Below are positions 169 through 43,566 of a DNA stretch of 64,000 nucleotides, one piece after another (the first letter of the stretch is position 1; the number at the start of each line of letters is the position of its first letter). The stretch lies in the NCBI GenBank assembly GCA_026770705.1, contig JANJGN010000140.1, forward strand, positions 1,116,001-1,180,000, in the 5' to 3' direction. The notes beneath the pieces were generated by a model. It saw only the letters and a program-made list of their open reading frames with translations. It ran no database searches and had not been told where the DNA came from. The DNA is from Isurus oxyrinchus. Lineage: Eukaryota. The position numbers were made by a program, and so were the translations under genes.

Positions 169-248
169 GGTTTTTGTATGAGGATGTCGCTGTGCACAGC
201 ACTGTGACCCACTGTAGTATCACAGTGAAATACAGACGCACAAAAACT
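169..248 (-). other. IGHD: IgH D1 gene segment (coding 207-220, ATACTACAGTGGGT) with flanking 12-RSS (V side) and 22-RSS (J side)
   Basis: On the + strand: ggtttttgt(169-177), 22 nt, cactgtg(200-206), coding 207-220, cacagtg(221-227), 12 nt, acaaaaact(240-248). This matches the shark IgM cluster D1 organisation and the horn-shark-type D1 core TACTACAGTGGGT. Confidence 0.95.
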
Positions 249-616
249 GCACCTGCTCTGTTCAGTGCTGCTTCCCAATCTTCACTTCAAATAGTCGTTT
301 ACTTCTGATCCGGTTTAGAATTCATGCAGCAATTTACAAAACTCAATGAATAGAGACCCTCCTCCAAGTGTCAGGCAGGTTAAAATGAGTATTATATCCA
401 GGTCTGTAATTGCGGAAGCTGTTAACAGTAAATATAAACACAGCGAAAAGCTCAGCCAATTATATCGATTGGTTTGTTAGGTTTTCTGTTAAATTTGCTG
501 TTTTACTTTTGTCACAAGTGGCTTGTTGTCTGGTTCTGATCATTACAGTTAATAATACATTTAAAACAAGTACTGACCGTCAGATTACGATGGAAGTTGT
601 TGAGTCCCTCTCGATC

Positions 617-655
617 TGTTCTTGTTCGGGTCCAGCCCTGGTTCCTTTCGCTGTG
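617..655 (-). promoter_or_regulatory. 23-bp-spacer recombination signal sequence of the VH
   Basis: Minus strand reads CACAGCG (655-649), 23 nt, ACAAGAACA (625-617), directly after YYCASE. Confidence 0.93.
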
Positions 656-961
656 ACTCGCTTGCACAGTAATAGATGGCGGTGTCTTCAATCTTCAGGT
701 TCGTCATGTCCAAGGAGAAAATGCTCATTGAAGTGTCTTTGGACGCCGTAAATCGATTCTTAATTGCTGGGGCATAGCTGTTGTCCGATGAATCATCGTA
801 GTAAACCAGCCATTCCAGCCCTTGTCCGGGAACCTGTCGGACCCAGTTCATGCCGTAGCTGTCAAGATCGAAGCCGCTGGTTTTACAGGTCAGTCTCAGG
901 GTGCCTCCGGGACGCCCGGTCTCTGCCTCTGGCTGAGTCAACACAACATCCGACTGGACAC
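656..961 (-). CDS. IGHV: Immunoglobulin heavy-chain V exon, shark IgM type, open frame
   Basis: Acceptor ttttacag|GT, then (R)[52 protein letters not shown]...[32 protein letters not shown]. Cys23, Trp41 and Cys104 are intact and there are no stops. Confidence 0.97.
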
Positions 962-1088
962 CTGTAAAAATATATCAAAAACCCCGAAGATTAACCCTGG
1001 TGAAATGATTCCTGACTCTGTAACATTCTAGAGAGAGACTAACACAGACAGTAACAGTGAGAGACTTGGACAATAAAAAACTACTCAC

Positions 1089-1134
1089 GGGATAAGAAAG
1101 TCAGCAACAAACTGAGAGAAATCGCCGACCTCAT
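1089..1134 (-). CDS. IGHV: VH leader exon MRSAISLSLLLTFLS(R)
   Basis: ATG at 1134 (an in-frame upstream ATG is at 1146). The 46-nt exon ends at a phase-1 donor C|GTGAGT, which joins the V exon in frame. Confidence 0.93.
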
Positions 1135-1224
1135 CCTTCTGGTCATCTGGGGAAAATGGTTCTGTCCAGAACTCAGTGAACAAACCAGCTCCCGGACTGT
1201 TGAATTCCGGCCCCAGAGAGCGGC

Positions 1225-1252
1225 ATTTAAATACCCGGCAGAAGGGGGCGGG
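1225..1252 (-). promoter_or_regulatory. Putative VH promoter: TATA-like TATTTAAAT and GC box; no octamer seen
   Basis: atttaaata at 1225-1233 lies ~90 bp upstream of the ATG, and gggggcggg is at 1244-1252. Confidence 0.55.
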
Positions 1253-2997
1253 ATTCCAGGCGCCGCCTGTTGATTCCCCCTAGAGGCGGCGACTGGATCC
1301 ACGCCCCACCTTCCACATCCCCAACAGAATGGACTCAGATATTTACAATAGGTTATTGTTAAAAGTGGGCATTTTATCTGTATCGGGATATAGTTCATAA
1401 AAATGATTAATTCAAATGTAAATTAAGTCCATTTATTTCTGCACTACTTCACAGCGGGTTGAATCTAAAAAAATAAGTTATATTAACAGGGAATAAAGGG
1501 GCTGTCAGTCTGTTTTGCAGCAACTCCGGGTCTCTATCTCATTACAGCAATAAAGTATCATTAGTCATTGGAATTATTATTGATTTATGTAATTAAATGC
1601 GGGCGATGAACAAAGTGATATTATTTACAAAATGGGTGGCTATGGCCATACAGTTTGGGTCCAGAGATAAGAAGAAACTCATCACATTATACAATGTCCC
1701 TCCTTGCATTTCTCGAATTGCTCCTGACCCGAAGACAGCCCTGTGGAAATTAGCGGAAAAAGAAGACCACCGGCCTGATAATTAAACAGTAAGTTGACAG
1801 AGAAACGTAAAATTTACATCAACTTTTGACAGAGAAGTTAATGAATCAGAACGGACACGGAGATCAGTAAAGTTATCCTTCAGCATCCAAATCATTGCAG
1901 GTAATTCTATTGGCCACCGGTTGTCTACCATTCACTGGTATTGGGAACACAGGATATCAGGACTTTGGGGCATATTACACAATAGCACAAGAATAAATGT
2001 TTTATCTTCCACTGAAGCGGGTCATGAACTGGTCATTTCTCCACTCATTGGCAGCTATGAGAGGGACTGTTAAATAATCGAAATCAGCACAAATTAAACT
2101 GTACAGTACACGGCGCTAATCAGGAATAAGAGGCGCCTCAGGTTAAATGAGATGCACAACTCGGAGAATATTCAAGGAATTCCTGCGGGTTTAAGGCAAT
2201 TCAACAAATTTCATTCAATTTAATTTCTTTTGAAGTTTTGCCATTGCACTCATTTCATTGGACTGGGTCATTGGGACCATCAGTGTCGCTCTCTCGCACT
2301 TCATGAAGTTCTTAATAAACAGGCTTTAATAACTGGGATGCCCTTTACTTAGAAATAATATAAATTAACTGGTATATGGTCAATTTAATATTTTCTGATC
2401 GTGTTTAACCTCAGTGAACACGGCACTCATTAAAATATTTCGTTGGATGAAATGCCATTTAAAATGTGTATTCCATGTATGACTGAAAGCAATATTGTTT
2501 GAATTGCTGAATCCCATTTTGTTCATTCATATCCAGGCTAATCTGCCCCACAGAGTATTTGGCAGCAAGCCAGCCGGCTGCAGTCAGGGAGGCTCGAATG
2601 CCCAAAGTTATTTACAGGAAGCATCTGCAGGTTTGTGCAGTAAATGAAAGATCTGTTTCCTCAGTATTGACCGCTTGGCTGCAAGCCAACTTCAAACCCT
2701 TAACATTGTCAACAAGGCTTATTTATGACAAATCTACCGAGCAACAACACTGGAGTCAGTTTTATTTTTCTAAGCTGTGAACCTATGTGAACTGTTCCAA
2801 TCTCCCAGGAAAGAAAAGTTATCCAGCTTCTCTGACACCCTGTTAGCATCAATAGCTCTCCAACACATCATAATATTGTGATGGATGGATGGATGGATAG
2901 AAAGAATTACAGACAGACTAGCAGAGAGGACTCAGAGAGAGGATACATTTTGAAATAGAAAAAACATGTGTGTTTGTGTGATTTTTCTGCCTCTTTA

Positions 2998-3380
2998 CCC
3001 TTTCACGGGATGTGAGAGTCACTGGCAAGGCCAGCATTTGTTGCCTTTCCCTAACTGCTCTTGAGCTGAGTGTCTTGTGAGGCTATTTCAGGGGGCAGAA
3101 AGCGTCCACCATGTTGCTGTGGATCTGGAGTAGCATGTAGGCCAGATTAGGTACAGTGGCAGATTTCCTTTCCTAAAGGACATTAGTGAATCAGCTGACC
3201 TTTTTCCACAATAGATCATAGTTTCATGGTTCTCTTCAATGGGACCAGTTTTCAATCCCAGCTTTCTAATTTAATTTAAATTTCACCAGCTGCCATGGTG
3301 GGATTTGAATTCGTGTCCCCAGGTGAATAGCTTGGGTCTCTGGGTTACTAGCCCAGTGACATTAATACAACACCACCGTC
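2998..3380 (-). mobile_element. tRNA-derived SINE (shark type)
   Basis: Reverse-strand head with gtggtgttgtattaatgtcactgggctagtaaccca...ttcaaatcccaccatggcag (A/B-box-like) and the LINE-derived 3' tail shared with other copies in the window. Confidence 0.75.
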
Positions 3381-4200: not shown

Positions 4201-4392
4201 CTGAAAATAATTGGTTAAAGCAATTATTTATCTTTGTGAATGGATGATAATTGATGAATATAATTATTTGCCTTTGTGAATGGATGGTAATTGGGGAATA
4301 TAATTATTTATCTGCATGAATGGATGCTAATTGGTGAATATAATTATTTATCTTTGTGAATTGATAATGATTGGTACATATAATTATGTATA
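4201..4392. repeat. 40-bp minisatellite, ~4.7 copies
   Basis: Unit taattatttatctttgtgaatggatgataattggtgaata recurs at 4221, 4261, 4301, 4341 and 4381. Confidence 0.9.
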
Positions 4393-4449
4393 TTTCTCAG
4401 GCTTCACGACCTTATCCTCCTCTGCTAACAGATAAGATCCGTTCTACAG

Positions 4450-8900: not shown

Positions 8901-8904
8901 GACA

Positions 8905-11140: not shown

Positions 11141-14100
11141 TCCAATCCATTTCATTAGATCCATTTAGTTTGAAGTGTCTGAATCGTGCTGGGAGAATAC
11201 ATTGGCTAGACATTCACTTCATGTTGTGGAGTGAAGACAATGACCCATGGTGGAGAGACAAGACACAGAACCAGAGAGGAGAAAGAGACAGAGAGAGAGA
11301 CAGAGGATACAGGAAATCTGTACAAACACATTTGCCGTGACATTATATTTCATGATAAGTGGGAATCTTTCTTAATTCTCAACATAGATATCATCGTGAC
11401 ATAATTCTCACATAACTGATTTTAAAAATGTCCAAAAAACAATTGCTACTGGAATCTGTTGATGTATTTGCATGTTTGACTCCATTTCTGTGCTTTGTTG
11501 ATGGGGAAATATTTGCTGTGTTTTTGTGTCTCCAGAATCTAATCTGGTACTTCTATTTCTGTGTTTATTTACATAAACGCCTGACTGATTTCAATGAAGT
11601 GTTCATGGCAGCAAAACCAGATAAACACAGACACTTATTGATTGGTTCCAACTCAAAACAAGGGTTTATTTTAAGAATATTGACAGTTGGTACAAAATTA
11701 ATAGAAACCACTTCAAGATCCATTAGAACAGATGTTATTTATTTCAAACAATTAAAATTACATTTAAATTAATAATTCAGTTCTGAAAATTGTCCTATCA
11801 CAATCAACGAAGAATCTTTGAACAGGCTAGAATTCCACTGAATGTCAATTTATTGGAAGACTTAACCCATTTAAACCGGACAGTTTAAAACAGCAGCCAG
11901 AGGAGCGACCTATTATTATATTAGTCTCACAGTTTTCAACGTATCACAACTAGCATTTTAAAATGCTAACACTTAGAAAGAGTTTGCATTGAAAGAATGT
12001 TGATTATGACCTGATGAAACCCTAAAATCCTTAAAACTCATAGTTTTGTTGAAGTTTCGTCACTGCTGTGATGTTGGAAATCCATCCGGTGATTTGTGCA
12101 CAGCAAGATCCCATGAATAAAGCTGTGAAAAATGACTAGATAATATGTAATTTTAGTTGAAGAATGAATATTGGTGAAGGATAGTGGGAAGATCAGTCCT
12201 GCTCTACAGAGTAATACCAAGGGAGATTTTGCATCTGTCATCGACCTGCAAGTTTGATCTTTTTCTCTCTCTATTGATGCCCACTGACCTGCTGAGTGTT
12301 TTTTTTTTTGTCTTGCTTTAGTTTTCCAGAATCCGCAGTATTTTGCAGCGTTTTAATTTGTTCTTGGGATACGGGCGTCAACGATGAAGTAATTATTGCA
12401 CTTGGCCCTGTCTCAGTTTATATTCGTCCAGAACAGAATTCAGGAATCACTGCACTAGACACTGTCTCAGTTTATATTAATTTAGACACTGTGTCAGTAA
12501 TCACTGCAGTAGACCCTGTCTCAGTTTGTATTAATCTAGACGCTATGTCAGTAATCACTGCACCAGACCCTGTTTCAGTCTATAATAATCCAGACCCTGT
12601 ATCTGTCTTCTCTGCGCTAGACCCTGCCTCAAATTATATAAATCTAGACGCTGTATCAGTAAACACTGCACTGGATCCAGTCTCAGTTTTTAGTAATCTA
12701 GATGCTGAATCACTGCACTAGACCCTGCCTGAGTTTATATTAATCTTCAGTAATCACTACACAAACTCTGTCTCAGTTTCTATTAGTTTAGACCCTGAAA
12801 CAGTAATCACTGCAGTAGAGCCTGTCTTAGTTTATATTAATCAAGAGCCGGAATCAGTGATCACAGCAGTAGAGTCCATCTCAAGTTATATTAATCTATA
12901 ACCTTAATCAGTAATCATTGCACTTCACTCTGTCCCAGCTTATACTTATCTTGACCCTATATAAGTAATCACTGCACTATGCTCTGCCTCAGTTTATATC
13001 AAATTAGAGCCTGTATCAGTAATCATTACACTTGCTCCTGCCTCAGCTTCTATTAATCAAGACCTTGTATCAGTATTCAATGTCCAAGGCAGTGTCTCAA
13101 TTTATATTGATTTAGACCCTGTATTAGTAATCTCTGCATTAGATGCAGGCTCAATTTATGTTAATATAGTACCTGTATCAGTAATACGAGCATGATAGCC
13201 TGTCTTACTTCATATTAATCTAGTCCCTGTATCAGTAATCACTGCACTAGCCGCTGTCTCAGTTTATATTAATTTAGAGCCTGTATCAGTAATCACTGCT
13301 CTGGAAACTGCCTCAGTTTATATTACTCAAGACCCTGAAACAGGAATCACTGCATTATGCCCTGCCTCAGTATATATCAATCTATACCCTGTGTCAGTAA
13401 TCACTGCACTAGAAACTGTCTGAGTTTATATTAATCTAGACCTGTATCATTAATCAGTGCACTAGACCCTGCCTCAATTTTTATTGATCTTGGCCCTGTC
13501 TCAGTTATCTCTGCACTCGACCAAGTCTCAGTTTGTATTTATTTAGTCCCTGCAGCAGTAATCACTGCAACAACCCCTGTCCCAGTTATATTTATCTATG
13601 TCCTGTATCAGTGAACACTGCACCAGGCCCTGTCTCAGTTTATATTAAACTAGGCCCTGTCACTGTAATCACTGCACCAGGCCCTGTCTCAGTTAATATT
13701 TACCTAGAGCCTGTATCAGTAATCACTGCACTGAACACTGTCTCAGTTATGAAAACAAAAAAACTGCGGATGCTGGAAATCCAAAACAAAAACAGAATTA
13801 CCTGGAAAAACTCAGCAGGTCTGGCAGCATTGGCGGAGAAGAAAAGAGTTGACGTTTCGAGTCCTCATGACCCTTCAACAGAACTGAGTGAATATTAGGA
13901 GAGGGGTGAAATATAAGCTGGTTTAAGGTGGGGGTGGGGGGGTGGGTGGGTTGGGGGAGGGGGAGAGAAGTTGTGGTGGGGGGAGGCGGTGGTGTGGTTT
14001 AGGGACAAGCAAGCAGTGATAGGAGCAGATAATCAAAAGATATCACAGCCATTTCCGCCAACTCCAGCATGATGCCACCATCAAACACATCTTCCCTTCA

Positions 14101-14176
14101 CCACCCCTACCCCACCGCCCCCCCCCCCCCCCCCCCCCCCCCCCCATCCTCCCCAACCGGTGGCATTCTGTAGGGA

Positions 14177-14716
14177 TTGTTCCCTCCGGGACACCCTGGT
14201 CCACTCCTCCCCTACTCCTCAGCCCCCACCAATGGCACCTCCCCATGCCCATGCAAAAGATGCAACACCTGCCCCTTCACTTCCTCTCTCCTCCCCGTCC
14301 AAGGACCCAAACACTCCTTTCAAGTGAAGCAGCATTTCACTTGCATTTCCCCCAACTTAGTCTACTGCATTCGTTGCTCCCAATGTGGTCTCCTCTACAT
14401 TGGAGAGACCAAACGTAAACTGGGCGACCGCTTTGCAGAAAACCTGCGGTCTGTCTGCAAGAATGACCCAAACCTCCCTGTCGCTTGCCATTTTAACACT
14501 CCACCCTGCTCTCTTGCCCACATGTCTGTCCTTGGCTTGCTGCATTGTTCCAGTGAAGCCCAACACGAACTGGAGGAGCAGCACCTCATCTTCCGACTAG
14601 GCACTTTACAGCCTTCTGGACTGAATATCGAATTCAACAACTTTATGATCTTGACCTCCCTCCTCCATCCCCACCCCCTTTCTGTTTCTTCCACCTTCCT
14701 TTTGTTTTTCCAATAA
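14177..14716 (+). pseudogene. GIY-YIG endonuclease domain of a Penelope-like element (truncated)
   Basis: PCKRCNTCP...FTCISPNLVYCIRCSQCGLLYIGETKRKLGDRFAE...PVACHFN...EQHLIFRLGTLQPSGLNIEF. Confidence 0.9.
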
Positions 14717-15036
14717 TTTATATAAATTTTTCTTTTCCCACTTATTTCCATTATTTTTAATTTTTTTATACCCAGCTAGTCTTTCCACCCCACCCCCACT
14801 AGAGCTGTACCTTGAGTGCCCTGCCATCCATTCTTAATTTGCACATTTGTTTAGATATCACCACCTTCAACACCTCTTTGTTCTTTTGTCTGTGACACCT
14901 TTTGATTAACTGCTTCTATCACTGCTTGCTTGTCCCTACAACCACACCAACACCACCACCCCCCCCCGACTTCTCTCCCCCCACCCCTTCCCCCCTTAAA
15001 CCAGCTTATATTTCATCTCTCTCCTAATATTCACTC

Positions 15037-15075
15037 AGTTCTGTTGAAGGGTCATGAGGACTCGAAACGTCAACT
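15037..15075 (+). ncRNA. Minimal type I hammerhead ribozyme (variant core CUGUUGA)
   Basis: AGTT-CTGTTGA-A-GGGTC-atgag-GACTC-GAAAC-GTC-AACT: helix I AGTT/AACT, helix II, palindromic ACGT helix III, GUC cleavage site. Confidence 0.75.
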
Positions 15076-18000
15076 CTTTTCTTCTCTGCCGATGCTGCGA
15101 GACCTGCTGAGTTTTTCCAGGTAATTCTGTTTTTGTACTGTCTCAGTTTATATTGATTCAGACACTGCATCAGTAATCACTGCAATGGACACTGTCTCAG
15201 TTTATATTGATCGAGACCCTGTATCAGTAATAGCTGCACTAGCTCCTGTCCTAGTTTATATTTATCTCGGCCCTGTATCAGTAGTATCTGCACTCAGTCC
15301 ATATCAATCCAGATCCTGTGTCAGTAATCAACGCATTGGACACTGTCTCAGTTTATATTAGTACAGATACTGTATCAGTAATCACTGCACTCGACCCTGT
15401 CTCAGTTTATATTAATCTTGACCCTGTATCAGTTATCATTGCAGTAGGCCCAGTCTCAGTTTGTATTTATCTCAGCCCTGTATCAGTAAACATTGCACTG
15501 GACATTGTCTGAGTTTAAATTAACCTAGACCCTGTATCAGTAATCATTGCATTAGGCCCTGTCTCAGTTTGTATTAATCTGGACCCTGTAACACTAATCA
15601 GTACACAAAGCCCTGTCTCAGTTTATATTCTTCTAGACCACATGTCAGTTATCTCTGCACTATGCTCTGTCCCAGTTTATTTTTCTCTCAGCCCTGTATC
15701 AGTAAGCACTGCACTGGACACTGTCTGAGTTTCAATTGATAAAGAGCATGTATCAGTAAACACAGCACCCGACCCTGCCTCAGTTTCTATTAATCTAGAC
15801 CCTGTATTAATAATGACTGCATTGGGCACCATCTCAGTTTATATTGATCCGGATCCTGTATCATTAATCATTGCACTAGCTTCTGTCCTAGTTTATATTT
15901 ATTTTCGCCCTGCATTAGTTATCACTGCACTGGGCTCTGTGTCAGTTTATGTTAATCTAGACCCTGTATCATTAATCTCTGCATTATGCCCTGCCTCAGT
16001 TTTTATCAGTCTAGACTCTGTATCAGTAATCACTGCACTAGGCTCTGTATCAGTTGATATTAGTCTAGACCCTGTATAGGAACACTGTACTGGTCACTGT
16101 CTTGGTTTATATCGATCCAGACCCTGTATCAGTAATGATTGCAATACAGCCTGTCTGATTTTATATAAATCCAACCTTGTATCACTAATCACTGCAGAAG
16201 GCCCTGCCTGAGTTCATCTTAATCTGGTGCCTATATCAGTAATCACTGCAGTATGTGCTGACTCAGTATATATGAATTAGGACCCTGTAACATTAATTAG
16301 TGCACTAGACCCAGTCTCAGTTTATATTGTTCTAGACCCTGTATCAGTTACCTCTGCACTATCCCCTGCCCCACTTCGTGTCAACCTAGATCCTGTAACA
16401 GTAATCACTGATATTTGGCCCTGTCTCAGTTTATATTAATCTAGACCCTTTATCAGCAATCACTGCACTGAACACTTTCTCAGTTTATATTGATACTGAC
16501 CCTGCATCAGAAATCACTGCACTAGACACTATTTCAGTTTATATTAATCTAGACCATGTATAATAATCAGTGCAACAGGCACTCTCACTTTGTATTGATC
16601 TGGGCTCTGTGTCAGTAATCACTGCAATAGCTGCTGTCCTCATTTTTATTTATCTAGGCCCTGTATCAGTGAACACTGCACCAGGCCCTGTCTCAGTTTA
16701 TATTAAACTAGGCCTTGTATCAGTAATCACTACACTTGGCCCTATCTCAGTTAACATGTATCTAGACCCTGTATCAGTTATCACTGCCCCAGCCTGTGTC
16801 CTAGTTTATATTTATCTAGGCCCTGTATCAGTAATATCTGCACTCAGTTCATATCAATCCATGTCCCGTATCAGTATTCAATGCATTGGACACAGTGTCA
16901 GTTTATATTAGTCCAGACCCTGTATCAGTAATGACAGAACTAGATGATGTCTCAGATTATATTTGTCCAGGTACTGTATCAGTAATGACTGCACTGGATC
17001 CTGTGTCAGCTTATATTAATCTAGACCCTGTATCAGTAATCACTGCAGTAGGCCCAGTCTCAGTTTATATTTATCTCAGCGCTATATCAGTAAAGACTGC
17101 ACTGGACATTATCTGAGTTTATACTGATCAACACCATGCTCAGTAAACACTGCACTCGTCCCTGGCTCATTTTCTATCAATCTAGACCCTTTATTAGTAA
17201 TGACTGCACTGGACACTGTCTCAGCTTATATTAATGTGGACCCCGTAACAGTAACCACTGCACTAGAGCCTGTCTCAGATTATATTTTGCTAGACCCTGT
17301 ATCAGTATTCACTGCATTATGCCCTGCATCACTGAATATCAACCGAGACCCTGTAACAGTACTCACTGCATTTGGACCTGTCTCAGTTTATATTGATTCA
17401 GACCCTGCATCAGGAATCACTGCACTAGACCCTATCTCAGTTTATATTAATCTAGTCCCTGAATAATAATCAGTGCAATGGACACTCTCACTTAGTATTG
17501 ATCTAGATCCTGTATCAGTAAGCACTAGTTTTTATTTATCTAGGCCCTGTATCAGTAGACACTGCATGATGGCCTGCCTCATTTTATATCAATCTAGACC
17601 CTGTATCAGTAACCACTGCACTAGACTCTCTCTCAGCTTATATTGATCTAGACCCTTCATCAGTAATCACTGCACTAGACCCTGTCTCAGTTTATATTAC
17701 CCTAGACCCTGTATCAGTAATCACTGTGCTATGACCTGTCTCATCCATATTAATCCAGGCCCTTTATGAGTAATCACTTCACTAGACCCTGTCTCCATTT
17801 ATATTAGCCCATACCCTGTATCAATAATGACAGAACTAGGGAATGCCTCAGTTTATAGGAGCCCAGACCCTGTATCAGTAATCACTGCACTAGCCCCTAT
17901 CCCAGTTTACATTGATCTAGACCCTGTATCAGTAATCACTCCACTTGGCCCTATCCCAGTTTATATTAGCCTAGACCCTGTATCAGTCATCACTGTACTA

Positions 18001-21000
18001 TGACCTGTCTCATTTCATATTAACCTAGGCCCTTTATGAGTAATCACTGCAATAGACCCTGTCTCAGTTTATATTAATCAGGACCCTTTGTCAGTAATCA
18101 CTGCACTAGATCCTGCATCTGTTTCTATTAATCTAAACCCTATATCAGTAATCACGGCACATGGCCCTGTCTCAGTTTACATCAACCCAGACTCCGTAAC
18201 AGTACTCACTGGACTTCGCCCTGCAACAAGTTTTATTATTCTAGACCCTGTATCACTATTTACTGCACTAGCCCCTGCCCTAGTTTATATTAGTCTAGAT
18301 CCAGTATCAGTGATCACTGCACTAGGCCCAGCCTCACTTTATATCAACCTAGGCCCTCTATCAGGAATCAATGCACTAGACCCTGTCACAGTTTATATTC
18401 ATCTAGATCCTGTGTCAGTAGTCATTGCACTAGACACTGTCTAAGTTGACACTGATCTAGACTTTTTTCAGTATCAATTTATATTTTATTTTGCCCTTCC
18501 TCAGCTTTTATCAATCTAGGCACTGTATCAGTAATCACCGCACTAGGCCCTGCCTCAGTTGATATGAAATAGGCCCACTGTCAGTAATTACTGCACTAGA
18601 CTCTGCCTTAGTTTATATTGATTTAGAGCCTGCATCAGTAATTACTGCACCAGGCCCTGTCGCAGTTTATATCAATCAAGATCCCATGTCAGTAATCACT
18701 ACACTGGACACTGCCTCAGTTTATATTTACCTAAAGCCTGTATCGGTAATCTCTGCACTGGACACAGTCTCAGTTTATATTAATCAAGACCCTGTATCAG
18801 TAATCAATGCAATAGATGCTGTCTCAATTGATATTGATCTAGACCTGTATAAGTAATCATTGCTCTTGACCCTGTCTCAGTTTACATTAATCTTGGCCCC
18901 ATATCAGTTATCTCTGCACTAGACTCTGTCCCACTTTATATTAGCTTAGCCCCTCAATCAGTAATCACTGCACTAGGTCCAGTCTGAGTTTATATTAATT
19001 TAGTCCCTGCAGCAGTAATCACTGCAAGAGCTTCTGTCCCAGTTATATTTATCTAGGCCCTGTATCACTGAACATTTCACCAGGGCATGTCTCAGTTTAT
19101 GTTGGTTCAGAAGCTGTTTCAGTATTCACTGCACTCGACTCTGTTCTGGTTATAACAATTTGCACCCCGAACCAAAAAGCATGGCACTGGACTATTTCTC
19201 AGTTTATATTAATCTAAAGCCTTTATCAATAATCACTGCATTATGCCCTGCCACAATTTATATCAATCTAGTCCCTCTATCAGTAATCACTGCACTAGGC
19301 CCTCTCTAAGTTCATATTAACCTCAAACCTCCATCACTAATCATGACAATGGCCCTGTCTCAGGTTATATTATTTCAGAGCCTGTGTCAGTATTAACTGC
19401 ACAAGACCCTGTCTCATTTAATATCAATCCAACCCTGCATCACAAATCACAGCACTAGGCCCTGTCTCAGCTTATATCAATCTAGACCCTGTAACAATAA
19501 TCATTGCACTTGGCCTTGTCTCATGTTCATATTAATTTCAACCCTTTATCAGGAATCACTGCACAATTTTATATCAATTTAGACCCTATATCAATAATCA
19601 CTGCACTAGACCCTGCATCATTTTATATCAATTTCAACCCTAAATCAGTAATCACTGCAAATGAGCCTCTCTCTGTTTATATTAATCTAGGCTCTGTGTC
19701 AGTAATCATGGCAGTAGGCCCTGTCTCAGTTTATATTTATCTCAGCTTTGTATCTATAATCACGGCGCTGGACATTGTCTGAGTTTATATTGATTGAGAC
19801 CATGTATCAGTAAATGCAGCACTAGATCCTATCTCACTCTATATTAATCTAGATCCTGTAACAGGGTTGAGTGCAGTGATTACTGAAACAGCTTCTGAAC
19901 CAACATAAACTGAGACATGCCCTGGTGAAATGTTCACTGATACAGGGCCTAGATAAATATAACTGGGACAGAAGCTCTTGCAGTGATTACTGCTGGAGGG
20001 ACTAGATTAGCATAAACTCAGACTGGAACTAGTGCAGTGATTACCGATTGAGGGGCTAAGCTAATATAAAGTGGGACAGAGTCTAGTGCAGAGATAACTG
20101 ATATGGGGCCAAGATTAATGTAAACTGAGACAGGGTCAAGAGCAATGATTACTTATACAGGTCTAGATCAATATCAATTGAGACAGCATCTATTGCATTG
20201 ATTACTGATACAGGGTCTTGATTAATATAAACTGAGACCGTGTCCAGTGCAGAGATTACTGGTACAGGCTCTAGGTAAGTATAAACTGAGGCAGCGTTCA
20301 GTGTAGTGATTACTGACATGGGATCTTGAATGATATAAACTGCGACAGGGCCTGGTGCAGTAATTACTGATGCAGGCTCTAAATCCTGTATCAGTCATCA
20401 TTGCACTCTGGCTTGACTCAGTTTATATTAGTCCAGACCATCTTTCACTAATCACTGTACTAGGCCCTCTCTCAGTTTATATTAATCTAGACCCTGTATC
20501 AGCAATGACTGTGCTAGACCTTGTCTCAGTTTATATTGATCTGGACCCTGTATCCGTAATCACTGCACTAGACTCGGTCTCATTTTATATTTACCTCGGC
20601 CCTAAATCAGTAATCAGTGCACTGGGCATTGCCTGAGTTTATATTGATTGAGACCATGCATCAGTAAACACTGAACTAGACCATGTGTCAGTTACATTGA
20701 GCTATACCCTGTATCAGTAATCACTGCAAAGGGCACTGACTCAGGTTATATTGATCAAGACCCTTTTTAAAGTTATCACTGTAAAGGGCACTGTCTCAGC
20801 ATATACTGATCTTGAACCTGTATCAATAATCACAGCACCATGCCCTGTCACAGTTTATATTAATGTAAGTCCTGAGTCTGTCATGAATGCACTAAGCTGT
20901 GTCTCAGCTTATATTCAGCTAGACCTGCAGCAATCACTGCACTAGGCCCTGTCTCAATTTAGATTAATCTCGGCCCTGTATCAGTCATCTTTGCAGTATG

Positions 21001-31684: not shown

Positions 31685-34120
31685 GAACGGCAATATATTT
31701 CCCGGTCAGAATGGTTTGTGGCTCGGAGGGGAACTTCCAGGTGGTGGTGTCCCCATCTATCGGCTGACCTTGCCCTTCTAGATGGTATTGGTCATGGGTT
31801 TCGAAGATGTTGCCTATGGAGGCTTGATGAATTCTCCACTGCATCTTGAAGATGGTACACACTGCTGCAAATGTGCATCCGTAGTCGAGGGAGTGAATGT
31901 TTGTGGGCGAGTTGTCAATCAAACCGGCTGCATTGCCTTGGGTAGTGTCAAGCTTTTTGAGTGTTGTTGGAGCTGCACTCACCCAGGTAAGTGGAGTGTA
32001 CGCCAGCACACTCCTGACGTGTGCCTTGTAGATGGTGGACAGGCCTTGAGGAGTCGGGAGGTGAGTTACTCGTCGCAGGATTCCTCGCCTCTGACCTGCT
32101 CTTGTAGCTGCAATATTTATATGGTTAGCCCAGCTCAGTTTCTGGTCAATGGCAACCCCCAGGTACTTGATAGTGGGGGATTCAGCGTTAGTAACGCCAT
32201 TGAATGTCAAGGGACGATAGTTAGATTCTATTCTGTTGGAGTTGGTCATTGTCTGGCACTTGTGTGGCGTGAATGTGACTTGCCACTTCTCAGCCCGAGC
32301 CTGGATATTGTTCAGCCCTTGCTGCATTTGGAAACGGACTGATTCAGTATCTGATGAGTCGTGGATGGTGCTGAACCTTGAGCAAAGATCAGAAAGCATC
32401 CCTACATCTGACGTTAAGATGGAAGGAAGGTCATTGATGAAGCAGCTGAAGATGGTCGGGCCAGGACACTACCTTGAGGAACTGATGTCCTGGGGCTGAG
32501 ATGACTGACTTCCAACAACCATAACCATCTTCCTTTGTACTAGGTATGACTCCAAACAGCGGAGAGTTTTCCCACTGATTCCCATTATTCCAGTTTTGCT
32601 AGGGCTTCTTGATGCCATACTGCCAAATTCGGCCTGGATGTCAAAGGCAGTCACTTTCACCTAACATCTCGAGTCCATCTCTTTGTCCAAGTTTGAACCA
32701 AGGCTGTAATGCTGTCACGGACTGAGTGACCTTGATGGAATCCAAAATGAGCGCAGTGAGCAGGTTATTGCCAAGTAAATACCGCTTGATAGCACTGTTG
32801 ATGGCTCCTTCTATCACTTCACTGATGTTCGAGAGTAGACTGATGGAGCAGAAATTGGCCGGGTTGGGCTTGCCCTGCTTTTTGTGTACAGGACGTACTT
32901 GGGCAATTTTCCACATATCCAGGTAAATGCTAGTGTTGTAACTGTACTGGAACAACCTGGCTAGGGGCGCAGCAAGTTCTGGAGCCCAAGTCTTCAGTGC
33001 TATTGCCAGAATATTGTCAGGACCCATTGCCTTTGCAGCAACCAGTGCCTTCAGCCATTTCTTGATATCACGTGGACTGAATCGAATTGGGTGAAAACTG
33101 GCATCATTGAAGCTGGGGACCTCCGGAGGAGGCCGAGATGGATCATCCACTCAGCACTTCTGGCTGAAGATTATTGCGAATGCTTCAGTCTTATCTTTTG
33201 CACTGCTATACTGGGCTCCCTCATCATTGGGGATTGGGATATTTCTGGACCAACCCCCTCCAGTGAGTTGTTTAATTTTCCACCACCATTCACTACTGGA
33301 TGTGGCAGGGCTGCAGAGCTTCGACCAGACCCGTTGGTTGTGGGAATGCTAGGCTCCGTCTATCACTTGCTGTTTATGCTATTTTGCACGCCAGTAGTCC
33401 TGTGTTATAGCTTCACCAGGTTAACACCTCATTTTTAGGTATTCCTGTTGCTGCTTCTGACATGCCCTCCTGCACTCTTCATTCAACCGGGGTTGTTCCC
33501 TTGGCTTCTTGTTAATAGTAGAGTAGGGGATATGCCGGGCCACGATGTTACAGATTGTGTTCGAGTACAATTCTGCTGCTGCTGATTGTCCCCAGTGCCT
33601 CATGGTTGCCCAGCCTTGAGTTGCTAGATCTGTTTGCAATCTATCCCATTTAGCAAGGCGGGAGTGCCACAAAACACAATGGACGATATCTTCAGTGTGA
33701 AGATGGGTCTTCGTCTCCACAAAGACCGTGTGGTGGTCACTCCTACAAATACTGTCATGGACAGATGCATCTGCGGCACGCAGGTTGTTGAGGATGGGGT
33801 CAAGTATCTTTCCCCCCCCCCCCCCTTGTTGTTTCCCTCACCACCTGCCGCAGACCCAGTCTAGCAGCTATGTCCTCTAGGAATCGACCAGCTCGGTCAG
33901 TAGTGGTGTTGCCGAGCCACTCTTGGTGATGGGACATTGAAGTCCCCACCCAGAGTACATTCAGCGCCTTTGCCATTCTCATTGCTTCCTCCAAGTGGTG
34001 TTCAACATGGAGCAGCACTGATTCATCAGCTGAGGGAGGGCCGTACGTCGTAATCAGCAGGAGGTTTCCTTCCCCATGATTGGACAGATGCCTTGAGACT
34101 TCATGGGGTCCGGAGTCCGG
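31685..34120 (-). mobile_element. CR1/L2-group LINE ORF2 remnant (APE endonuclease end plus RT), adjoining the truncated V exon
   Basis: GNLLLITTYGPPSADESVLLHVEHHLEEA; KAMGPDNILAIALKTWAPELAAPLARLFQYSY...PVHKK...PANF.SISLLS; WQVTFTPHKCQ...KYLGVAIDQKLSW. Confidence 0.9.
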
Positions 34121-34121
34121 A

Positions 34122-34459
34122 CCCGGGGGCATGGCTGCATAGAATATGAGGCATCAGTGGTCAAATAGCTGTAAGTAATGATCACCGAATCTCCTTCAAC
34201 TGCAGCGCTGTAACCGGCTCCTGTGAGATTGAATTTGTACCACCAACACCTGCGGGAATTTAGAGATGCAGAACGTTAAGATTGCATTATCATTTTATTC
34301 TATCTAATAAAATCAGGTGACGGAACATGCTGCAACTTGAAAGAGAGAACAGTGAAATTAACTTTAAGATCTATGCAAGAGGAAGGTTGTGCAACTTGTG
34401 GACTTACTGGGTAAGAGAGCTACAGCTGTGAGAAATGGATAAAAAGTAAAACCAATATA
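34122..34459 (-). pseudogene. TRAV/TRDV: TCR alpha/delta-like V pseudogene, family A (left arm); start lost, 3' half replaced by LINE
   Basis: Leader (Y)IGFTFYPFLTAVALLP|gtaagt at 34459-34408. Exon from 34249 reads SVGGTNSISQEPVTALQ-EGDSVIITYSYLTTDASYSMQ with a 1-nt deletion. Paralogous to 39436-39877. Confidence 0.8.
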
Positions 34460-34994: not shown

Positions 34995-35408
34995 GGTTTT
35001 TTATGGCCTAACTGTGCCTCTGTAACAGTGTGGCATTCAGTCCATGTGACACACGGCAGAGACAGAGACAGTCAAGGGAATAGTTTTCTTGTATTTTTCC
35101 AAATCAGCAGAAAACCGCTCTGGGAGATCTGGAGGCTTAGCCTCTTGCGCCAGCCTGTATTTCCCCAGTAAATATCTCGGAGCTCCAGGACATCCCAGTG
35201 GAGATAGTGAATGCCATGGGACGTGGAGTAACTGCAGCTTCGTATCAGGATCTTTTCTTCATGCAGTGTTAAGCATGAAGGCGAACCCTGAGATTCTGAA
35301 TCTTAGTCACTCGTTGCGGCAAAATAAAGAATGTTTCAAAAACTGATCACCTAAACATAGACTCACCAGGTACCACATTGCTACCAGTGAGGAACATGGT
35401 GAACGCAT
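34995..35408 (-). pseudogene. TRAV/TRDV: TCR alpha/delta-like V pseudogene, family C (left arm), with 23-RSS
   Basis: Leader ATG 35408 to donor GTGAGT at 35366. Body DSESQGSPS...LIRSCSYSTSHGIHYLHW / PGAPRYLLGKY...PDLPERFSADLEKYKKTIPLTVS / SAV. RSS is CACACTG(35032-26), 23 nt, A-AAAAACC. Confidence 0.85.
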
Positions 35409-36399: not shown

Positions 36400-36607
36400 T
36401 CTTGTTCTTTCTCAGGCAATGAATCTCCATCACTCATCTCTGAAAATAAACAACGGACACACAGCAGGTTAGGTGAAGTGACAGAAAGAGACGAATCTCC
36501 CAGAGATGGAATTGGGAAATTATACAAAGATGGGAGAAAATTATAGGAAGTGCCCAATATCACCGACTAGTGATCGAGACAATAACCAAAGCCAGGCAGA
36601 GTTTCAT
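36400..36607 (-). pseudogene. TRAV/TRDV: TCR V pseudogene, family B (left arm): leader, intron and first codons only
   Basis: MKLCLALVIVSIT|gtcggt at 36607-36568. The intron end ccgttgtttattttcag matches 37910-37926, and the exon start AG ATG AGT GAT GGA GAT TCA parallels ETRTGDS. Confidence 0.7.
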
Positions 36608-37714: not shown

Positions 37715-38275
37715 ATGGGGGTGGAACTGTCTTTTTTTATTCATGTACGAGGTGTGGGCTTCGCTGGCTGGGCCAGCTTTTATTCCTTATTCCCAGTTGC
37801 TCTGACTATGGTTATGTTCCTGATCACAGGCCAGTACGCGATCCTTGTGCAATTTCCCATCTCCGGATGATAATTCTCTTTCTAATGCTCCTTCTAATCC
37901 GCTGTGTAGCCGCTGTTTATTTTCAGAGACGAGAACTGGAGACTCAGGTTCCCAGCCAGAACAATGTTGCGAAGCAGGAGAGGGCGAAGGTTCAGCAATA
38001 ACCTGCAAGTTACTCTGTATCGAGTTGAGCTACACAGCATAACCTGTTCTGATATCGCCAGGTTCCACAGCAAACTCCTCAGTATCTGATCAGAGCCGAT
38101 ATTTACGGGTATAACGATACGGCTCTGGATTTAAACACTCCAACGGGAACCTCAACCCGCCAGGAAGCACTTTTCACTTGTTCATGAAAGAGCTGAAGAT
38201 GACAGACAGCTCCGTGCATTATTGCGCGCTGGGGCCCACAGGGACTGAGTGTCTCGTGGGTCTCATCCAGAAACT
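37715..38275 (+). pseudogene. TRAV/TRDV: TCR alpha/delta-like V pseudogene, family B (right arm), with 23-RSS
   Basis: Leader 37715-37829 carries a retro insert. Exon from 37927 reads ETRTGDSGSQPEQ..EGEGSAITC / SYSVS...LF*YRQVPQQTPQYLI / STFHLFMKELKMTDSSVHYCAL. RSS is CACAGGG(38237-43), 23 nt, CCAGAAACT(38267-75). Confidence 0.9.
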
Positions 38276-39030: not shown

Positions 39031-39193
39031 AGTGAATGGTTTAGAGCTGACTTCATATCTGAGAGAGCAGCCAATCGCAGGGCTGAGAAACGCCCCTCAG
39101 TTCCCCAAAAGGAAAAAAAAAGTGCCATTGGCATAAGACTCCGAGCGTCCACATATTTTAAACAGCGTGCTGTTTACTATCGAATCAGGAACC

Positions 39194-39345: not shown

Positions 39346-39435
39346 AAATCGGCTGCGAGGTCCGGCTAATACTCAACAACTAAAACAATTCTGGTGAAAC
39401 ACATTTTGTTCAAATCTACCATCAGCTCAGTGAAC

Positions 39436-39877
39436 ATGATGGGTGTTACTTTTTAATCATTCCTCGCAGCTGAAGCTCTCTTAACTGGTAAGACTCACAA
39501 GTTACCCAATTTTCATCTTGATGGTGACACTGAGACAGTAATCCTCCCTTTAACTGCCTTTTCCCTGTATTTGCATATATTCTTTTAACTTAATAACAAT
39601 TGGTGATAAAAAATTCTCATAAAAAGTTAAAGCTTTCTATTTCTAAATTTCTGCAGGTATTCATGCTGCAGACTCTGTTTCGCAGGAGCCGGAGAGAGTG
39701 CAACAGTTTGAAGGAGACTCGGTGAACATTAATTTGAGTTATGCGACCACTGCTGGTTTCTATTTCATACAACTGTACCGTCAGCACTGGGAGCAGGCTC
39801 CCACATTCTTGATCTCCACTCCTTCTGCTGAGGATGTTTTCAGAGTAGAGGGCGTGTACCTGAAATTGTTTTCGTGA
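39436..39877 (+). pseudogene. TRAV/TRDV: TCR alpha/delta-like V pseudogene, family A (right arm), 3'-truncated
   Basis: Leader MMGVTF*SFLAAEALLT|gtaaga at 39436-87. Exon from 39657 reads GIHAADSVSQEPERVQQFEGDSVNINLSYATTAGFYFIQLYRQHWEQAPTFLI; no YYC or RSS. Confidence 0.85.
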
Positions 39878-41069
39878 AAAGTGGTTAATATTGCGCAACA
39901 TCCGGCGTTTCTGCCTATTGGTTCATTCTTGACAGAATCAGCAGGTGGCATCCAATCAGGTCCTTTATTCTGTTATTCGTCCAATCAGCTGAGAGCTCCT
40001 TTACTCTCCAATTCGTGATATCAGATCGGGCAACAGTGAATGGAACAGTGAGTAGAACAGGAATTAAACACAATGTTATCCCTTCAACTGTTTGAGTCCG
40101 CGAGGTGGGTGGAGTGAATGGAAAGTGTTCATATTGCGCTGGTATCAGTGCCGGAAGCTCACGTTAAAAGAGCTTCTCACTGATCATTAGGGCAATCCAC
40201 GGCAAATAGAAAGGTGGTTATAGAGGACCAGGGTGCTCTGAAAGCTTTGAGTAAAGCAACACGGTCAATTAAACCAATTCCACCTATTACATGAATGAAA
40301 TAGGGATTGACTGACAGGGTTGAGCAGAACGGGAGAGGTAAGCAGTAGGTGAGATCAGACAAACTCTGCTCTGTGAAATATATTTACAATATATTTACAT
40401 TCTTAATATCTTAATCGTTCATCATAAGGTTTAAAATGAAACACACTTTTCATTTGAAACGATAACCTCTATTCCCGACTATATTTCGCTACTTCCTTTT
40501 AAAAATGAATTAATTGAATAATGTTACAAACATGTGAATGAAGAATTGTCTTGGGTTTGGGGAAAGAGCAAGGATGAGAGGTTAATTGCATTGGACATAC
40601 GAAGAGCTGGCACAAGCAAAATGGTCCGAATGGACTCCTCCGCTGCTGGATGGTGCATTGATCTCCGCCTGACTGAACTAAACACTGTTTCCGGAACAGA
40701 CCTGGCCAACAGCCAAGAGCTGAAGGTTAGCAACATGAGAAAACAATAGCAATAAAACAGTAACAGGCTTCAGCCGACCCTGTTAACACTTTCCCTGCTG
40801 AACGGATGGTGTATGTGGACCTGTAATTCACAAACACGTCAACTGTATTGAGGAGAGCAGCGTTGGGTGTGGAGATTGTCAGTCCTCGCTAAAGATCAAA
40901 AGTATGAAGCTAATTCTATTCATTGTGTTTCCTGGTTTCTGCATTCGGTGGATCAGGAATATGACTGGAGGATTAGTTTAATCGGGAATTATTGCGATTT
41001 GAAATCAAGAACATTACTTTCGTAGTAAATATCTTTCATATCATCACGGAGGGCAAGGATTCAATCTAA

Positions 41070-41196
41070 CGCTGATGCGCTGCTGTCGCTGATGAGCTGC
41101 GCTCGCTGATGCGCTGCTCTCGCTGATGCACTGCTCTAGATGATGCGCTGCTCTCGCTGATGCGATGCTCTCGCTGATGCGGTGCACTCGCTGATA
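41070..41196. repeat. 17-bp minisatellite, ~7.5 copies
   Basis: Unit CGCTGATGCGCTGCTCT. Confidence 0.92.
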
Positions 41197-41789
41197 TGCC
41201 CCCTGGAGCCAGATTTCTCATCTATCCTTTTCAATAAAAGCCACAACTGTCTCCTTTTGCTCAGGAAGTACTGGTGGGCAAGCCCGGAATTGGGAAGGAG
41301 ATTAATATTGGACCCGAAACGTTCAATCTGCTTCTCTCTCCACAGATGTTGCCAGACCTTTCCAGCATGTTCTGCTTTCATTTCAAATCTCCAGCACCCG
41401 TGGTATTTTGCTTTCATACAAGGGTACACATCCATTGTGTCTGATGCAGAGTGAGCCCATCGGTTGTTTCAATACTGCAATTCCCCCTGCATTTAATTAG
41501 AGCTTAAAAATGATGAATAACCGCAATTGGTTTTGGAAACAAATGCCTTTAATGTACGCGCATTTGAGGCCTGTTGTTGTGCCCAGGCCCGGAAACACAT
41601 GAATTGTATTGCCTGCAGTGGCTGCACATTATTGACTAACCTCGCCTTCTACAACAGTAAACGTCATTTAATGCTAAATAATCTCCAGGGAACAGAATGT
41701 ATAAGGAACATTTGGACATTTTCAACGCATTGAGAATTTAAGATTCATCTAAATACTTGCTTTTCTTTCAAAACTGAGAGTCTGCGGGG

Positions 41790-42390
41790 AGAATCATATC
41801 GACAGGCAGACAGAAAAAAATCAGGGAGTGACAAAGGTAGAAACGCGGATTGAGATATAGAGAGAAAGTCTGAGTGAGAGACAGTGAGCAAAAGACTGAT
41901 GGAGATACAGGGCGACGATTAGCAGGAGGGAAGGCAATGCCAGAAAATGAAGGAGAAACATAGAGATTAACAGAGAGAGAATCAATGAGAGAAATGAGAG
42001 AGTGATAAAGGGTAGAAATGAGAGAGAAAGAGAGGGAGAGAGAGAGAGACACACACACACACACACATAGATAGATAAAGAGAGAGAGGGTAGGATTTAG
42101 ATGCAAATACAGAAGGAGAAACAGATGGAGAAGTACGGGCACATTAAAGCACGAAATTAAGAGAAAAAAAATGAAAATGCAGTGAGTGACCCAGAGGGAG
42201 AGACTGTGATAAATATAGAGGCAGAGGCAGAAACAGAGCGAGGGAGAGAAACAGATGGAGATAATAGAGGGAAATGGATGAAGATACGGGAAGGGAAAAG
42301 TTGTAGGAATATGAAGACATTATAGACGGAGAGACGATGAGAGACAAACAAACAGACAACAAGGTAAACAAAGGTATTGATAGTGAGAGA
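41790..42390. repeat. GA-rich low-complexity tract
   Basis: Purine-rich degenerate (GA)n. Confidence 0.85.
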
Positions 42391-42826
42391 AACTGTGTTA
42401 CTGTGGGAAAAGCAGTGCCCTAATTGGAAGCAGGAATTCCAGGAGGGAAAGAAAATTAACATTATGCAACACATGAGATGGAAAGGTTGACTTCCGAGAA
42501 CTACATGGCCTCCTGGATTACTAGATCAAGATCTTAATCGTCATGTTATTGTGCCCTTCCTGTGGCAGTAAACAAACAAGCACGATGTGGGAGCTCCATC
42601 TGGTGGCGATCTCAGGTAAATGTGCACTAATTGGAAAAATCACCGGGTTCTCAACTTGTTGAACGATGTTCTTGCATATTTGTGTCGCATTATTCCTGTT
42701 AATATTATTACTATTGTAATATAATTTAATGCAGATGAACAGACACACGGGAGCTGATTCCAACTTCATTTTAAATCCTGCGATTCCTTGTGTTTGTTTA
42801 CCTGCACCACACGGATTGTAGCGTTC

Positions 42827-43112
42827 AACTCTTTTGAGTACAAACCCGTTTCCATCTGTTTCAGATGAAGTTACATTGTTTCATAGTTTGCCATTGTGAG
42901 ATTTGAACTCTTGACCTTGGGGTTACAAACCCAGTACCATAACCACTTGGCTATTTAGGCCAAGCAAAGGATATTTGGCTGTAACTTTTTTGAGTACAAA
43001 CCCATTTCCATCTGTTTCAGATGAAGTTACATTGTTTGCCATAGTGAGATTTGAACTCTTGACCTTAGGGTTATAAACCCAGTACCATAACCACTTGGCT
43101 ATTTAGGCCAAG
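42827..43112 (-). mobile_element. Tandem dimer of a short tRNA-Thr(UGU)-derived SINE
   Basis: Two ~135-bp copies (42827-42964, 42983-43112). Minus strand reads GGCCTAAATAGCCAAGTGGTTATGGTACTGGGTTTGTAACCCCAAGGTCAAGAGTTCAAATCTC, with A box, UGU loop and B box; the acceptor stem is broken. Confidence 0.75.
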
Positions 43113-43210
43113 AGATGGCAGCTCATCACCACCTTCTCAATGACAATTATGGATGGGCAATAAATGCTAGCTCAGCCAGTGAAGCCCAAATTCCGTAAAT
43201 GAATAAAACG

Positions 43211-43566
43211 ATGCACTGATAACGATGTTGCTGATGATGAGATGGTGACTATTCCCAACATTTATGTCAGAATTGAGCCATCAACACACAGTAGAATAGT
43301 CGGCTGCTGAAATGACGGCTGAAGAGGAAGTATTATCACCCTGAACTGCACCTTCAACCAAGTTATTCTGACTCTTATGTGCTGTGGAGTAGTCAACATT
43401 CCAGGCACCCTCCGCTGTCCACCCACTCCATGGATGGATAACAAATTGAAAGTTCTACTTTGCAGACTGATTCTCTCTTAGGTTTGCTAAAACTACTGAC
43501 ATCACCGAGTCAACGATTAGTAAAGCCTTGGTCTCCGACCCCAGTGTATTTCTGTACCATGAGTCC
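43211..43566 (+). pseudogene. TRAV/TRDV: TCR alpha/delta-like V pseudogene (fourth family), RSS absent
   Basis: Exon from 43271 reads LSHQHTVE*SAAEMTAEE / GSIITLNCTF / SYSDSYVLWSSQHSRHPP / FAD*FSLRFAKTTDITESTISKALVSD / VYFCTMS. A leader remnant lies upstream. Confidence 0.8.

What the first reader, a model, noticed from the sequence alone, without database searches (positions are those of the whole stretch)
169..43566. Intact IgM-type VH-D unit sits ~33 kb from a TCR alpha/delta V array: a mixed Ig/TCR locus
Seen: an open VH with leader and 23-RSS plus a 12/22-RSS D, on the same 44-kb stretch as at least seven TCR Valpha/delta-like segments, with no C exon recognised between them. Known: sharks rearrange IgH V segments to TCR delta D/J/C, and IgH V elements have been reported within the shark TCR alpha/delta locus. 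Inference: this VH-D may be a cis donor for IgHV-TCRdelta chimeric receptors rather than, or as well as, a conventional IgM cluster. The D's 22-spacer RSS could pair directly with a 12-RSS of a Ddelta or Jdelta.
Basis: partly seen in the sequence, partly recalled or inferred. Interest (0 to 1): 0.75.

Follow-up and report, generated by a model that had tools for sequence, protein, structure and literature searches.

The report
Ordinary shark IgM cluster among TCR-Vs
The antibody V and D segments at the window's edge are the front half of a complete shark IgM gene, and the nearby T-cell-receptor-like V pieces in the window are broken relics; this mixing of the two gene types is already published for sharks, so the gene most likely makes ordinary antibody and would feed T-cell receptors only occasionally.

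Summary
VH, leader, 23-RSS and the 12/22 D are real. Left of the window lie D2 (12/12), JH, four open Cmu exons, a secretory tail and a membrane exon: a complete IgM minicluster. The window holds five supported TCR V relics (not seven intact segments), all broken; intact Vs start 32 kb beyond its right edge. No TCR J or C lies in the 311 kb of the contig examined; the alpha/delta core is on another contig. IgM clusters and V arrays are co-duplicated over about 17 Mb, as published for great white shark and others (Flajnik 2025). So: mixed locus yes, special cis donor no. Two side findings are more interesting: a second, intact-looking delta-only TCR core inside the IgM field (about 90% identical to the main one), and a germline RAG hybrid-joint inversion with P nucleotides that swaps the D2/JH signals in this cluster's two sister copies. 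The scan earlier noted NAR-TCR cassettes and germline-joined exons on other pieces of this genome, not this locus.

The parts
1089..1134 (-). IgM VH leader exon (ATG at 1134, GT donor at 1088)
   Evidence: sequence; leader-to-V splice of 127 nt seen in contigs of all four runs laid
656..961 (-). open IgM-type VH exon, both Cys and Trp present
617..655 (-). VH 23-spacer RSS
221..248 (+). D1 5' 12-spacer RSS
207..220 (-). D1 segment (14 nt); D2, JH, Cmu1-4, secretory tail and TM exon follow left of the window at G000:C140:1,115,838 down to about 1,096,100
169..206 (-). D1 3' 22-spacer RSS, consensus heptamer and nonamer
34109..34262 (-). TCR V relic, 5' half only, frameshifted
   Evidence: nhmmer E 4.5e-16; frames
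34995..35408 (-). TCR V pseudogene: leader, frameshifted V lacking the second Cys motif, 22-spacer RSS at 35,032
   Evidence: nhmmer E 1.2e-20
36400..36607 (-). leader-like exon with a stop and a short V-exon stub; by inspection only, not significant in profile searches
37917..38275 (+). TCR V pseudogene with stops and frameshifts and a degenerate 23-spacer RSS
   Evidence: nhmmer E 8.4e-6
39645..39878 (+). TCR alpha/delta-type V, 5' two thirds open then stop, no second Cys, no RSS
   Evidence: nhmmer E 2.4e-60; 36 of 36 PDB hits are TCR alpha chains
43292..43583 (+). heavily frameshifted TCR V relic, no RSS
   Evidence: nhmmer E 7.2e-7

Best explanation
The VH-D unit is the 5' half of a complete shark IgM heavy-chain minicluster (L-VH-D1-D2-JH-Cmu1-4-tail/TM) that likely rearranges within itself in B cells to make ordinary IgM, and it sits beside dead TCR V relics because IgM clusters and TCR alpha/delta V arrays were duplicated together as large blocks in the shark antigen-receptor region. 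Shown: the anatomy, the open frames and RSS, the broken state of the relics, and one block of about 160 kb (cluster, relics, V array) repeated at 85-95% identity on C26. Inferred: joining VH23-12D1, D1 22-12D2, D2 12-23JH and splicing to Cmu for this copy (seen for the family in relatives' contigs only). Inferred and untested: in thymocytes a free VH or VH-D1 end may now and then join a Ddelta or Jdelta 12-RSS at long range, as any cluster in the region could.
For: Complete cluster with open exons and splice sites. 63 near-full-length VH matches at 70% or more among 150 listed, 38 of them on C26 at 24.0-40.0 Mb, with Cmu-like C1 exons 13-17 kb from many of them, interleaved with matches to one TCR V from 23.1 to 40.3 Mb. 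Window -29 kb to +133 kb is collinear with C26:29.585-29.750 Mb at 85-95% and with C26:36.03-36.15 Mb at about 98%. No TCR-type J motif and no TCR C in C140:996,001-1,307,262. Contigs from four runs of other organisms (RNA is the tool's guess; at most 3 samples, 3 studies) show five VH-to-JH joints with D-like letters between and JH running into the first letters of Cmu1 in all four. Flajnik 2025 (PMC12227049; results text and Table S1 read) reports TCR alpha/delta V exons between IgH clusters and lists IgM, TCRa/dV and NARTCR V alternating over 8.4-17.1 Mb of great white shark chr27. Malecek 2008 (PMC2435157, passages): nurse shark IgH rearranges within the minilocus, and partly also in thymocytes.
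Against: No transcript can be assigned to this copy: the laid contigs are 82-100% alike and come from other organisms, and Logan contigs drop rare joints. The loose-end table was cut (12 rows not shown), so a VH-Jdelta joint could have been hidden. The second membrane exon was not located. Only 321 of 1,307 kb of C140 were fetched. C140 is unplaced, so its real distance to a Ddelta is unknown.
Confidence: 0.88

Rival explanations
1. Dual-use gene: a normal IgM cluster that is also a regular, selected donor of VH (with or without D1) to TCR delta in cis, by long-range deletion or inversion to a Ddelta/Jdelta 12-RSS.
For: RSS are compatible: VH 23 and D1 22 versus Ddelta 12/23 and Jdelta 12. The 98% counterpart of this cluster lies on C26, 6.2 Mb from a second Ddelta-Jdelta-Cdelta, and an 89% paralog lies 207 kb from it. 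IgM/IgW V to TCR delta chimeras are stated as common in sharks (PMC12227049, PMC5931798 passages), and IgH loci rearrange partly in thymocytes.
Against: Nothing sets this cluster apart from about 60 others. Both delta cores carry their own Ig-like V about 5 kb upstream of Ddelta, a far closer donor. No VH-Jdelta joint among the rows shown.
Confidence: 0.3
2. The VH-D is a dedicated TCR-delta-associated Ig V (TAILV/VH-delta type) and not part of an antibody gene.
For: TCR V relics from 33 kb away, intact Vs and NAR-TCR-type cassettes 95-190 kb away on the same contig.
Against: It has its own D2, JH, four open Cmu exons, tail and TM exon; no TCR J or C within the 311 kb examined; the resident Ig-like Vs are elsewhere and only 57-59% identical to it.
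Confidence: 0.03
3. The cluster is intact in sequence but silent or redundant, and the many copies partly reflect uncollapsed haplotypes in the assembly.
For: Three 98-99% versions of this block exist (C140, C26, C152), and several unplaced contigs repeat C26 matches with equal scores.
Against: The three versions each have private sites (34, 36, 31 in 8,435 columns), so they cannot all be two alleles; the 85-95% paralog is too divergent for an allele; frames and RSS are intact.
Confidence: 0.12

Closest known systems
Elasmobranch IgM heavy-chain minicluster (nurse shark groups 1-5; Malecek 2008 PMC2435157, passages read)
   Same: One VH, two D, one JH within 2 kb, about 400 bp apart, then one Cmu gene; clusters spaced 100 kb or more apart.
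   Different: JH-to-Cmu1 distance is about 13 kb here against 6.3-6.8 kb quoted for nurse shark; about 60 related VH in this assembly against about 15 loci.
Shark antigen receptor complex, AgRC (Flajnik 2025 PMC12227049; results text and Table S1 read)
   Same: IgM clusters with TCR alpha/delta V and NARTCR V between them over many Mb; Ig-like Vs just upstream of TCR delta; a proteasome-beta gene beside other VH/C clusters (C88, subunit identity not tested).
   Different: Here the alpha/delta core (C242) and the proteasome-beta contig are not joined to the IgM field in the assembly; a second Cdelta core lies inside the field, whereas Table S1 lists at most one TCR delta constant entry per species (gene models only).
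IgHV-TCRdelta chimeric rearrangements and TAILV (Criscitiello 2010, Deiss 2019, Ott 2021: known only from citations in PMC12227049, PMC5931798, PMC6795676; Ott 2021 not held)
   Same: RSS spacing allows the join; IgM VH and TCR delta share a region.
   Different: This VH belongs to a full IgM gene; the locus-resident Ig-like Vs are different genes 5 kb upstream of each Ddelta.
Germline RAG hybrid joint in shark IgH (Lewis and Wu 2000 PMC2193153, passages read)
   Same: Inversion of the RSS-flanked DNA between two segments, swapping 12- and 23-type signals.
   Different: The published case is between D1 and D2; here it is between D2 and JH, in sister copies of this cluster rather than in the window's copy, with 2-nt palindromic additions at both ends and a 98-99% identical uninverted copy for comparison.

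Membership tests
Shark IgM heavy-chain minicluster | One VH with split leader and 23-RSS | tested here: met
Shark IgM heavy-chain minicluster | Two D segments and one JH within about 2 kb with compatible RSS (12/22, 12/12, 23) | tested here: met
Shark IgM heavy-chain minicluster | Four open Cmu exons with secretory tail ending in Cys-Gln and a membrane exon | tested here: met
   second short TM exon not located
Shark IgM heavy-chain minicluster | This copy is rearranged and expressed as VDDJ-Cmu | tested here: inconclusive
   family-level joints in other organisms' contigs only
TCR-delta-resident Ig-like V (TAILV / VH-delta) | Lies in the TCR delta locus upstream of Ddelta-Jdelta-Cdelta (name from PMC12227049; detail recalled) | tested here: not met
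   no TCR J or C in 311 kb around it; Cdelta only on C242 and C26
TCR-delta-resident Ig-like V (TAILV / VH-delta) | Has no IgH J and C of its own (recalled) | tested here: not met
TCR-delta-resident Ig-like V (TAILV / VH-delta) | Found in transcripts joined to Cdelta | not testable with these tools
   no same-species RNA listed; the Ddelta-Jdelta side was not examined in reads
Shark AgRC (IgH/TCR alpha-delta region) | IgM clusters with TCR alpha/delta V and NARTCR V between them | tested here: met
   NAR-TCR label recalled from sequence motifs and from likeness to cassettes beside Ddelta on C242
Shark AgRC (IgH/TCR alpha-delta region) | Physical linkage to TRDC/TRAC and PSMB5 | tested here: inconclusive
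   a Cdelta is on C26 with the 98% counterpart; Calpha on C242 and a proteasome-beta gene on C88 are unplaced; no overlap between C242 start and C26 end
Functional TCR V segments (the window's V pieces) | Open V exon with both Cys plus a 23-RSS | tested here: not met
   0 of 5 supported relics

The most novel reading that the evidence does not exclude
This shark has a second, delta-only T-cell receptor locus (Ig-like V, Ddelta, ten Jdelta, intact Cdelta, no Jalpha or Calpha) embedded among dozens of IgM clusters, which serves as a routine cis acceptor for IgM VH segments; and sister copies of this cluster, whose D2 and JH signals were swapped by RAG in the germ line to a TCR-delta-like 12/23 and 12 layout, show an antibody cluster caught in the act of becoming compatible with TCR delta joining.
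Probability: 0.2. Interest if true: 0.72.

Novelty: new member of a known kind. Interest (0 to 1): 0.3.

Why it matters
For the finding as given, little: it is one more IgM cluster in the shark Ig/TCR region described in 2025. It does show how the mixing arises, by block duplication of cluster plus V array. The side findings matter more. A duplicated delta-only core inside the IgM field would give a direct test of whether closeness in cis sets which IgH V segments enter the TCR delta repertoire, and would parallel the separate VH-using delta loci of other vertebrates (recalled). A recent germline hybrid joint with an uninverted near-twin gives a clean natural test of RAG acting in germ cells and of how swapped signals change a repertoire (D2 skipping, shorter CDR3).

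Tried and rejected
Homolog search with an intact array V for longer proteins: 69 candidates, none at E<=0.001, so no named shark TCR reference was obtained. Pfam PF09291 (TCR alpha constant) in the genome: one weak unrelated match; Calpha was found instead by position and likeness to Cdelta. PDB searches with the intact V and with Cdelta were dominated by multi-domain antibodies and do not classify them (one TCR delta chain among 60 shown); Cdelta and Calpha are named from locus order (D 12/23, J set, C, 75 J motifs in 656-730 kb plus more to 743 kb, C) and their TCR-type membrane exons. Sequencing runs: no RNA holder listed on record for the VH-D-J stretch; no run held half its words. Weak V-like hits at 37.5 kb, 41.1-41.4 kb and six other places were rejected as within the reversed-sequence control. 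No overlap found between the start of C242 and the end of C26. Paper searches for the interleaving by other wording gave 0 or 1 irrelevant paper. For a duplicated shark TCR delta core or a D2-JH hybrid joint I found nothing or in Table S1, but Criscitiello 2010, Deiss 2019 and Ott 2021 were not read (Ott 2021 not held) and the library lacks most subscription journals, so this is not proof of novelty. The PDF supplement of PMC12227049 was not read.
Full report
Observation. The minus strand at the window's left end carries a leader exon (1134-1089), a 127-nt intron, an open VH exon (961-656), a 23-spacer RSS, and a 14-nt D at 207-220 with a 12-RSS before it and a consensus 22-RSS after it. PDB hits are antibody heavy-chain V domains. 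The window is G000:C140:1,116,001-1,180,000 of a 4.98-Gb assembly; that it is a shark is inferred from the gene layout. For the TCR side, 44 V nucleotide queries taken from neighbouring loci gave 14 clusters in the window: the VH, five at E<1e-5 (34.1, 35.0, 37.9, 39.6, 43.3 kb) and eight at E 0.055-0.45, no better than the six clusters of a reversed-window control. A sixth stub at 36.4-36.6 kb is visible by eye only. All carry frameshifts, stops or truncations. The relic at 39,668 matches TCR alpha chains in 36 of 36 PDB hits. So the count of seven is not reached and none is usable.

What lies to the left. The 120 kb left of the window hold D2 (12/12 RSS) at C140:1,115,826-838, JH with a 23-RSS at 1,115,431, Cmu1-4 at about 14-17 kb, a secretory tail and a membrane exon at about 20 kb, all open and with splice sites; the short second membrane exon was not located. 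This is the standard minicluster (PMC2435157, passages). D1's 22-RSS has its ordinary partner in D2's 12-RSS. Contigs of four runs from other organisms (RNA by the tool's guess; at most three samples and studies) show the leader splice, five VH-to-JH joints with D-like letters between, and JH continuing into the first letters of Cmu1 in all four runs. This is evidence for the family, not for this copy; 12 loose-end rows were not shown.

What lies to the right. Beyond the window, C140 holds 30 V-like loci, 10 full-length and stop-free, at least 7 of these with an RSS within three mismatches; the first is at window +96.3 kb. Cassettes of NAR-TCR type (label recalled from motifs) lie at 1.275-1.305 Mb. 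No TCR-type J motif and no TCR C exon occur in C140:996,001-1,307,262; apart from its first 10 kb the rest of the contig was not fetched, but genome-wide searches found Cdelta only on C242 and C26, Calpha only on C242, and all 16 matches to a Jalpha-type pattern on C242.

The wider region. Of 150 listed VH matches, 63 are near full length at 70% or more: 38 on C26 between 24.0 and 40.0 Mb and 25 on eight unplaced contigs. Matches to one array V alternate with them from 23.1 to 40.3 Mb. The block from window -29 kb to +133 kb, cluster, relics and V array together, recurs on C26:29.585-29.750 Mb at 85-95%, and about 120 kb of it at C26:36.03-36.15 Mb at about 98%. Block duplication therefore explains why an IgM cluster stands beside TCR Vs. 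The alpha/delta core is on C242: Ig-like V at 584.7 kb (59% to the window VH), Ddelta 12/23 at 590.2 kb, at least 11 Jdelta, Cdelta at 616.9 kb, Jalpha array from 657 to 743 kb, Calpha at 749.5 kb. C242 is not joined to C26 or C140 in the assembly.

Mechanism. Most likely the cluster rearranges VH-D1-D2-JH within 1.3 kb and splices to Cmu in B cells (anatomy shown; use of this copy inferred). In thymocytes shark IgH clusters rearrange partly, and a VH 23-RSS or D1 22-RSS can in principle join a 12-RSS of Ddelta or Jdelta; such chimeras are stated as common in sharks. That route is open to every cluster in the field, and each delta core has its own Ig-like V 5 kb from Ddelta, so nothing marks this VH as a special donor. 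I could not test chimeric transcripts for this species.

Comparison with print. Flajnik 2025 (PMC12227049) states that V exons of TCR alpha/delta type lie between IgH clusters, and its Table S1 lists IgM, TCRa/dV and NARTCR V alternating over 8.4-17.1 Mb in great white shark, with TAILV and an IgW V just before TCR delta in catshark. Venkatesh 2014 (PMC3964593, passage) notes close Ig-TCR linkage in elephant shark. The finding is a further instance.

Side finding 1. A second Cdelta (85% amino acid, 92% nucleotide in the C exon; 6 synonymous and 16 non-synonymous codon differences; membrane exon identical in protein) lies at C26:29,902,103-429. Upstream are NAR-TCR-type cassettes, an open Ig-like V with RSS, a Ddelta with 12/23 signals and ten Jdelta motifs; C242:582-644 kb aligns to C26:29.937-29.875 Mb at about 84-93% with no N gaps, and the match stops before the Jalpha array; no J motif occurs in the 99 kb downstream. 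It is too divergent for an allele. Against function: the C exon differences are not skewed to silent sites, and expression is untested. The 89% paralog of the window's cluster is 207 kb from its Ddelta, the 98% counterpart 6.2 Mb.

Side finding 2. In the two nearest copies of this cluster (C26:36.12 Mb, C152:303 kb) the roughly 390 bp between D2 and JH, both RSS included, is inverted at 99% identity, so D2 is followed by the 23-RSS and JH preceded by the 12-RSS; each new junction has two added bases that form a palindrome with the coding end. The pattern occurs in exactly these two places (2 of 14 JH matches). The window's copy and the 89% paralog are uninverted, and the two inverted copies are sisters near JH (49 sites private to C140 against 6 and 9), so the inversion is derived and most simply a single germ-line RAG hybrid joint. 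A D1-D2 case is published (PMC2193153). The result gives D2 the 12/23 and JH the 12 layout of TCR delta; any effect on repertoire is inferred.

Verdict. Observation partly confirmed; mixed locus real and known; dedicated cis donor not supported. Interest 0.3, carried mainly by the two side findings.

Noticed in passing
G000:C26:29,875,000-29,960,000 (loci L069-L077, L082): Second TCR delta core, about 90% identical to the C242 core, with open Ig-like V, Ddelta, ten Jdelta motifs and intact Cdelta and membrane exons, but no Jalpha or Calpha; embedded among IgM clusters.
   Followed up: partly
G000:C26:36,124,760-36,125,155 (L036) and G000:C152:303,180-303,575 (L102): D2-JH intervening DNA inverted with 2-nt palindromic additions at both ends in the two sister copies of the window's cluster: likely germline RAG hybrid joints.
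   Followed up: yes
G000:C26:29,840,000-29,873,000 (L066-L069): A further, more decayed partial copy of the delta V region with a Ddelta remnant near 29,856,864, and an opposite-strand 23-RSS segment at 29,872,902 downstream of the second Cdelta.
   Followed up: no
G000:C140:1,275,000-1,305,000 (L023-L026): NAR-TCR-type V cassettes and a supporting-type V delta about 160-190 kb from the VH on the same contig (label recalled).
   Followed up: no
G000:C26:29,964,800-29,965,000 and 29,975,150-29,975,350 (L078, L079): Short tandem runs of near-perfect 23-RSS about 62 bp apart behind supporting-type V segments.
   Followed up: no
window 12,388-19,737: 54-bp satellite arrays (26, 45 and 41 copies, about 70% match) fill part of the gap between VH and the V relics, and are shared with the 89% paralog.
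   Followed up: no
window 656-950 versus C26:36,123,634 and C152:302,056: The window's VH differs from its two sister copies at five residues, three in CDR1/CDR2 and one at the CDR3 edge, while the sisters are identical in protein.
   Followed up: no
G000:C88:500,000-1,300,000: A proteasome-beta gene at 776 kb among VH (47-49%) and C1 exons about 20-28 kb apart, the layout published for PSMB5 beside IgW clusters; identities not tested.
   Followed up: no
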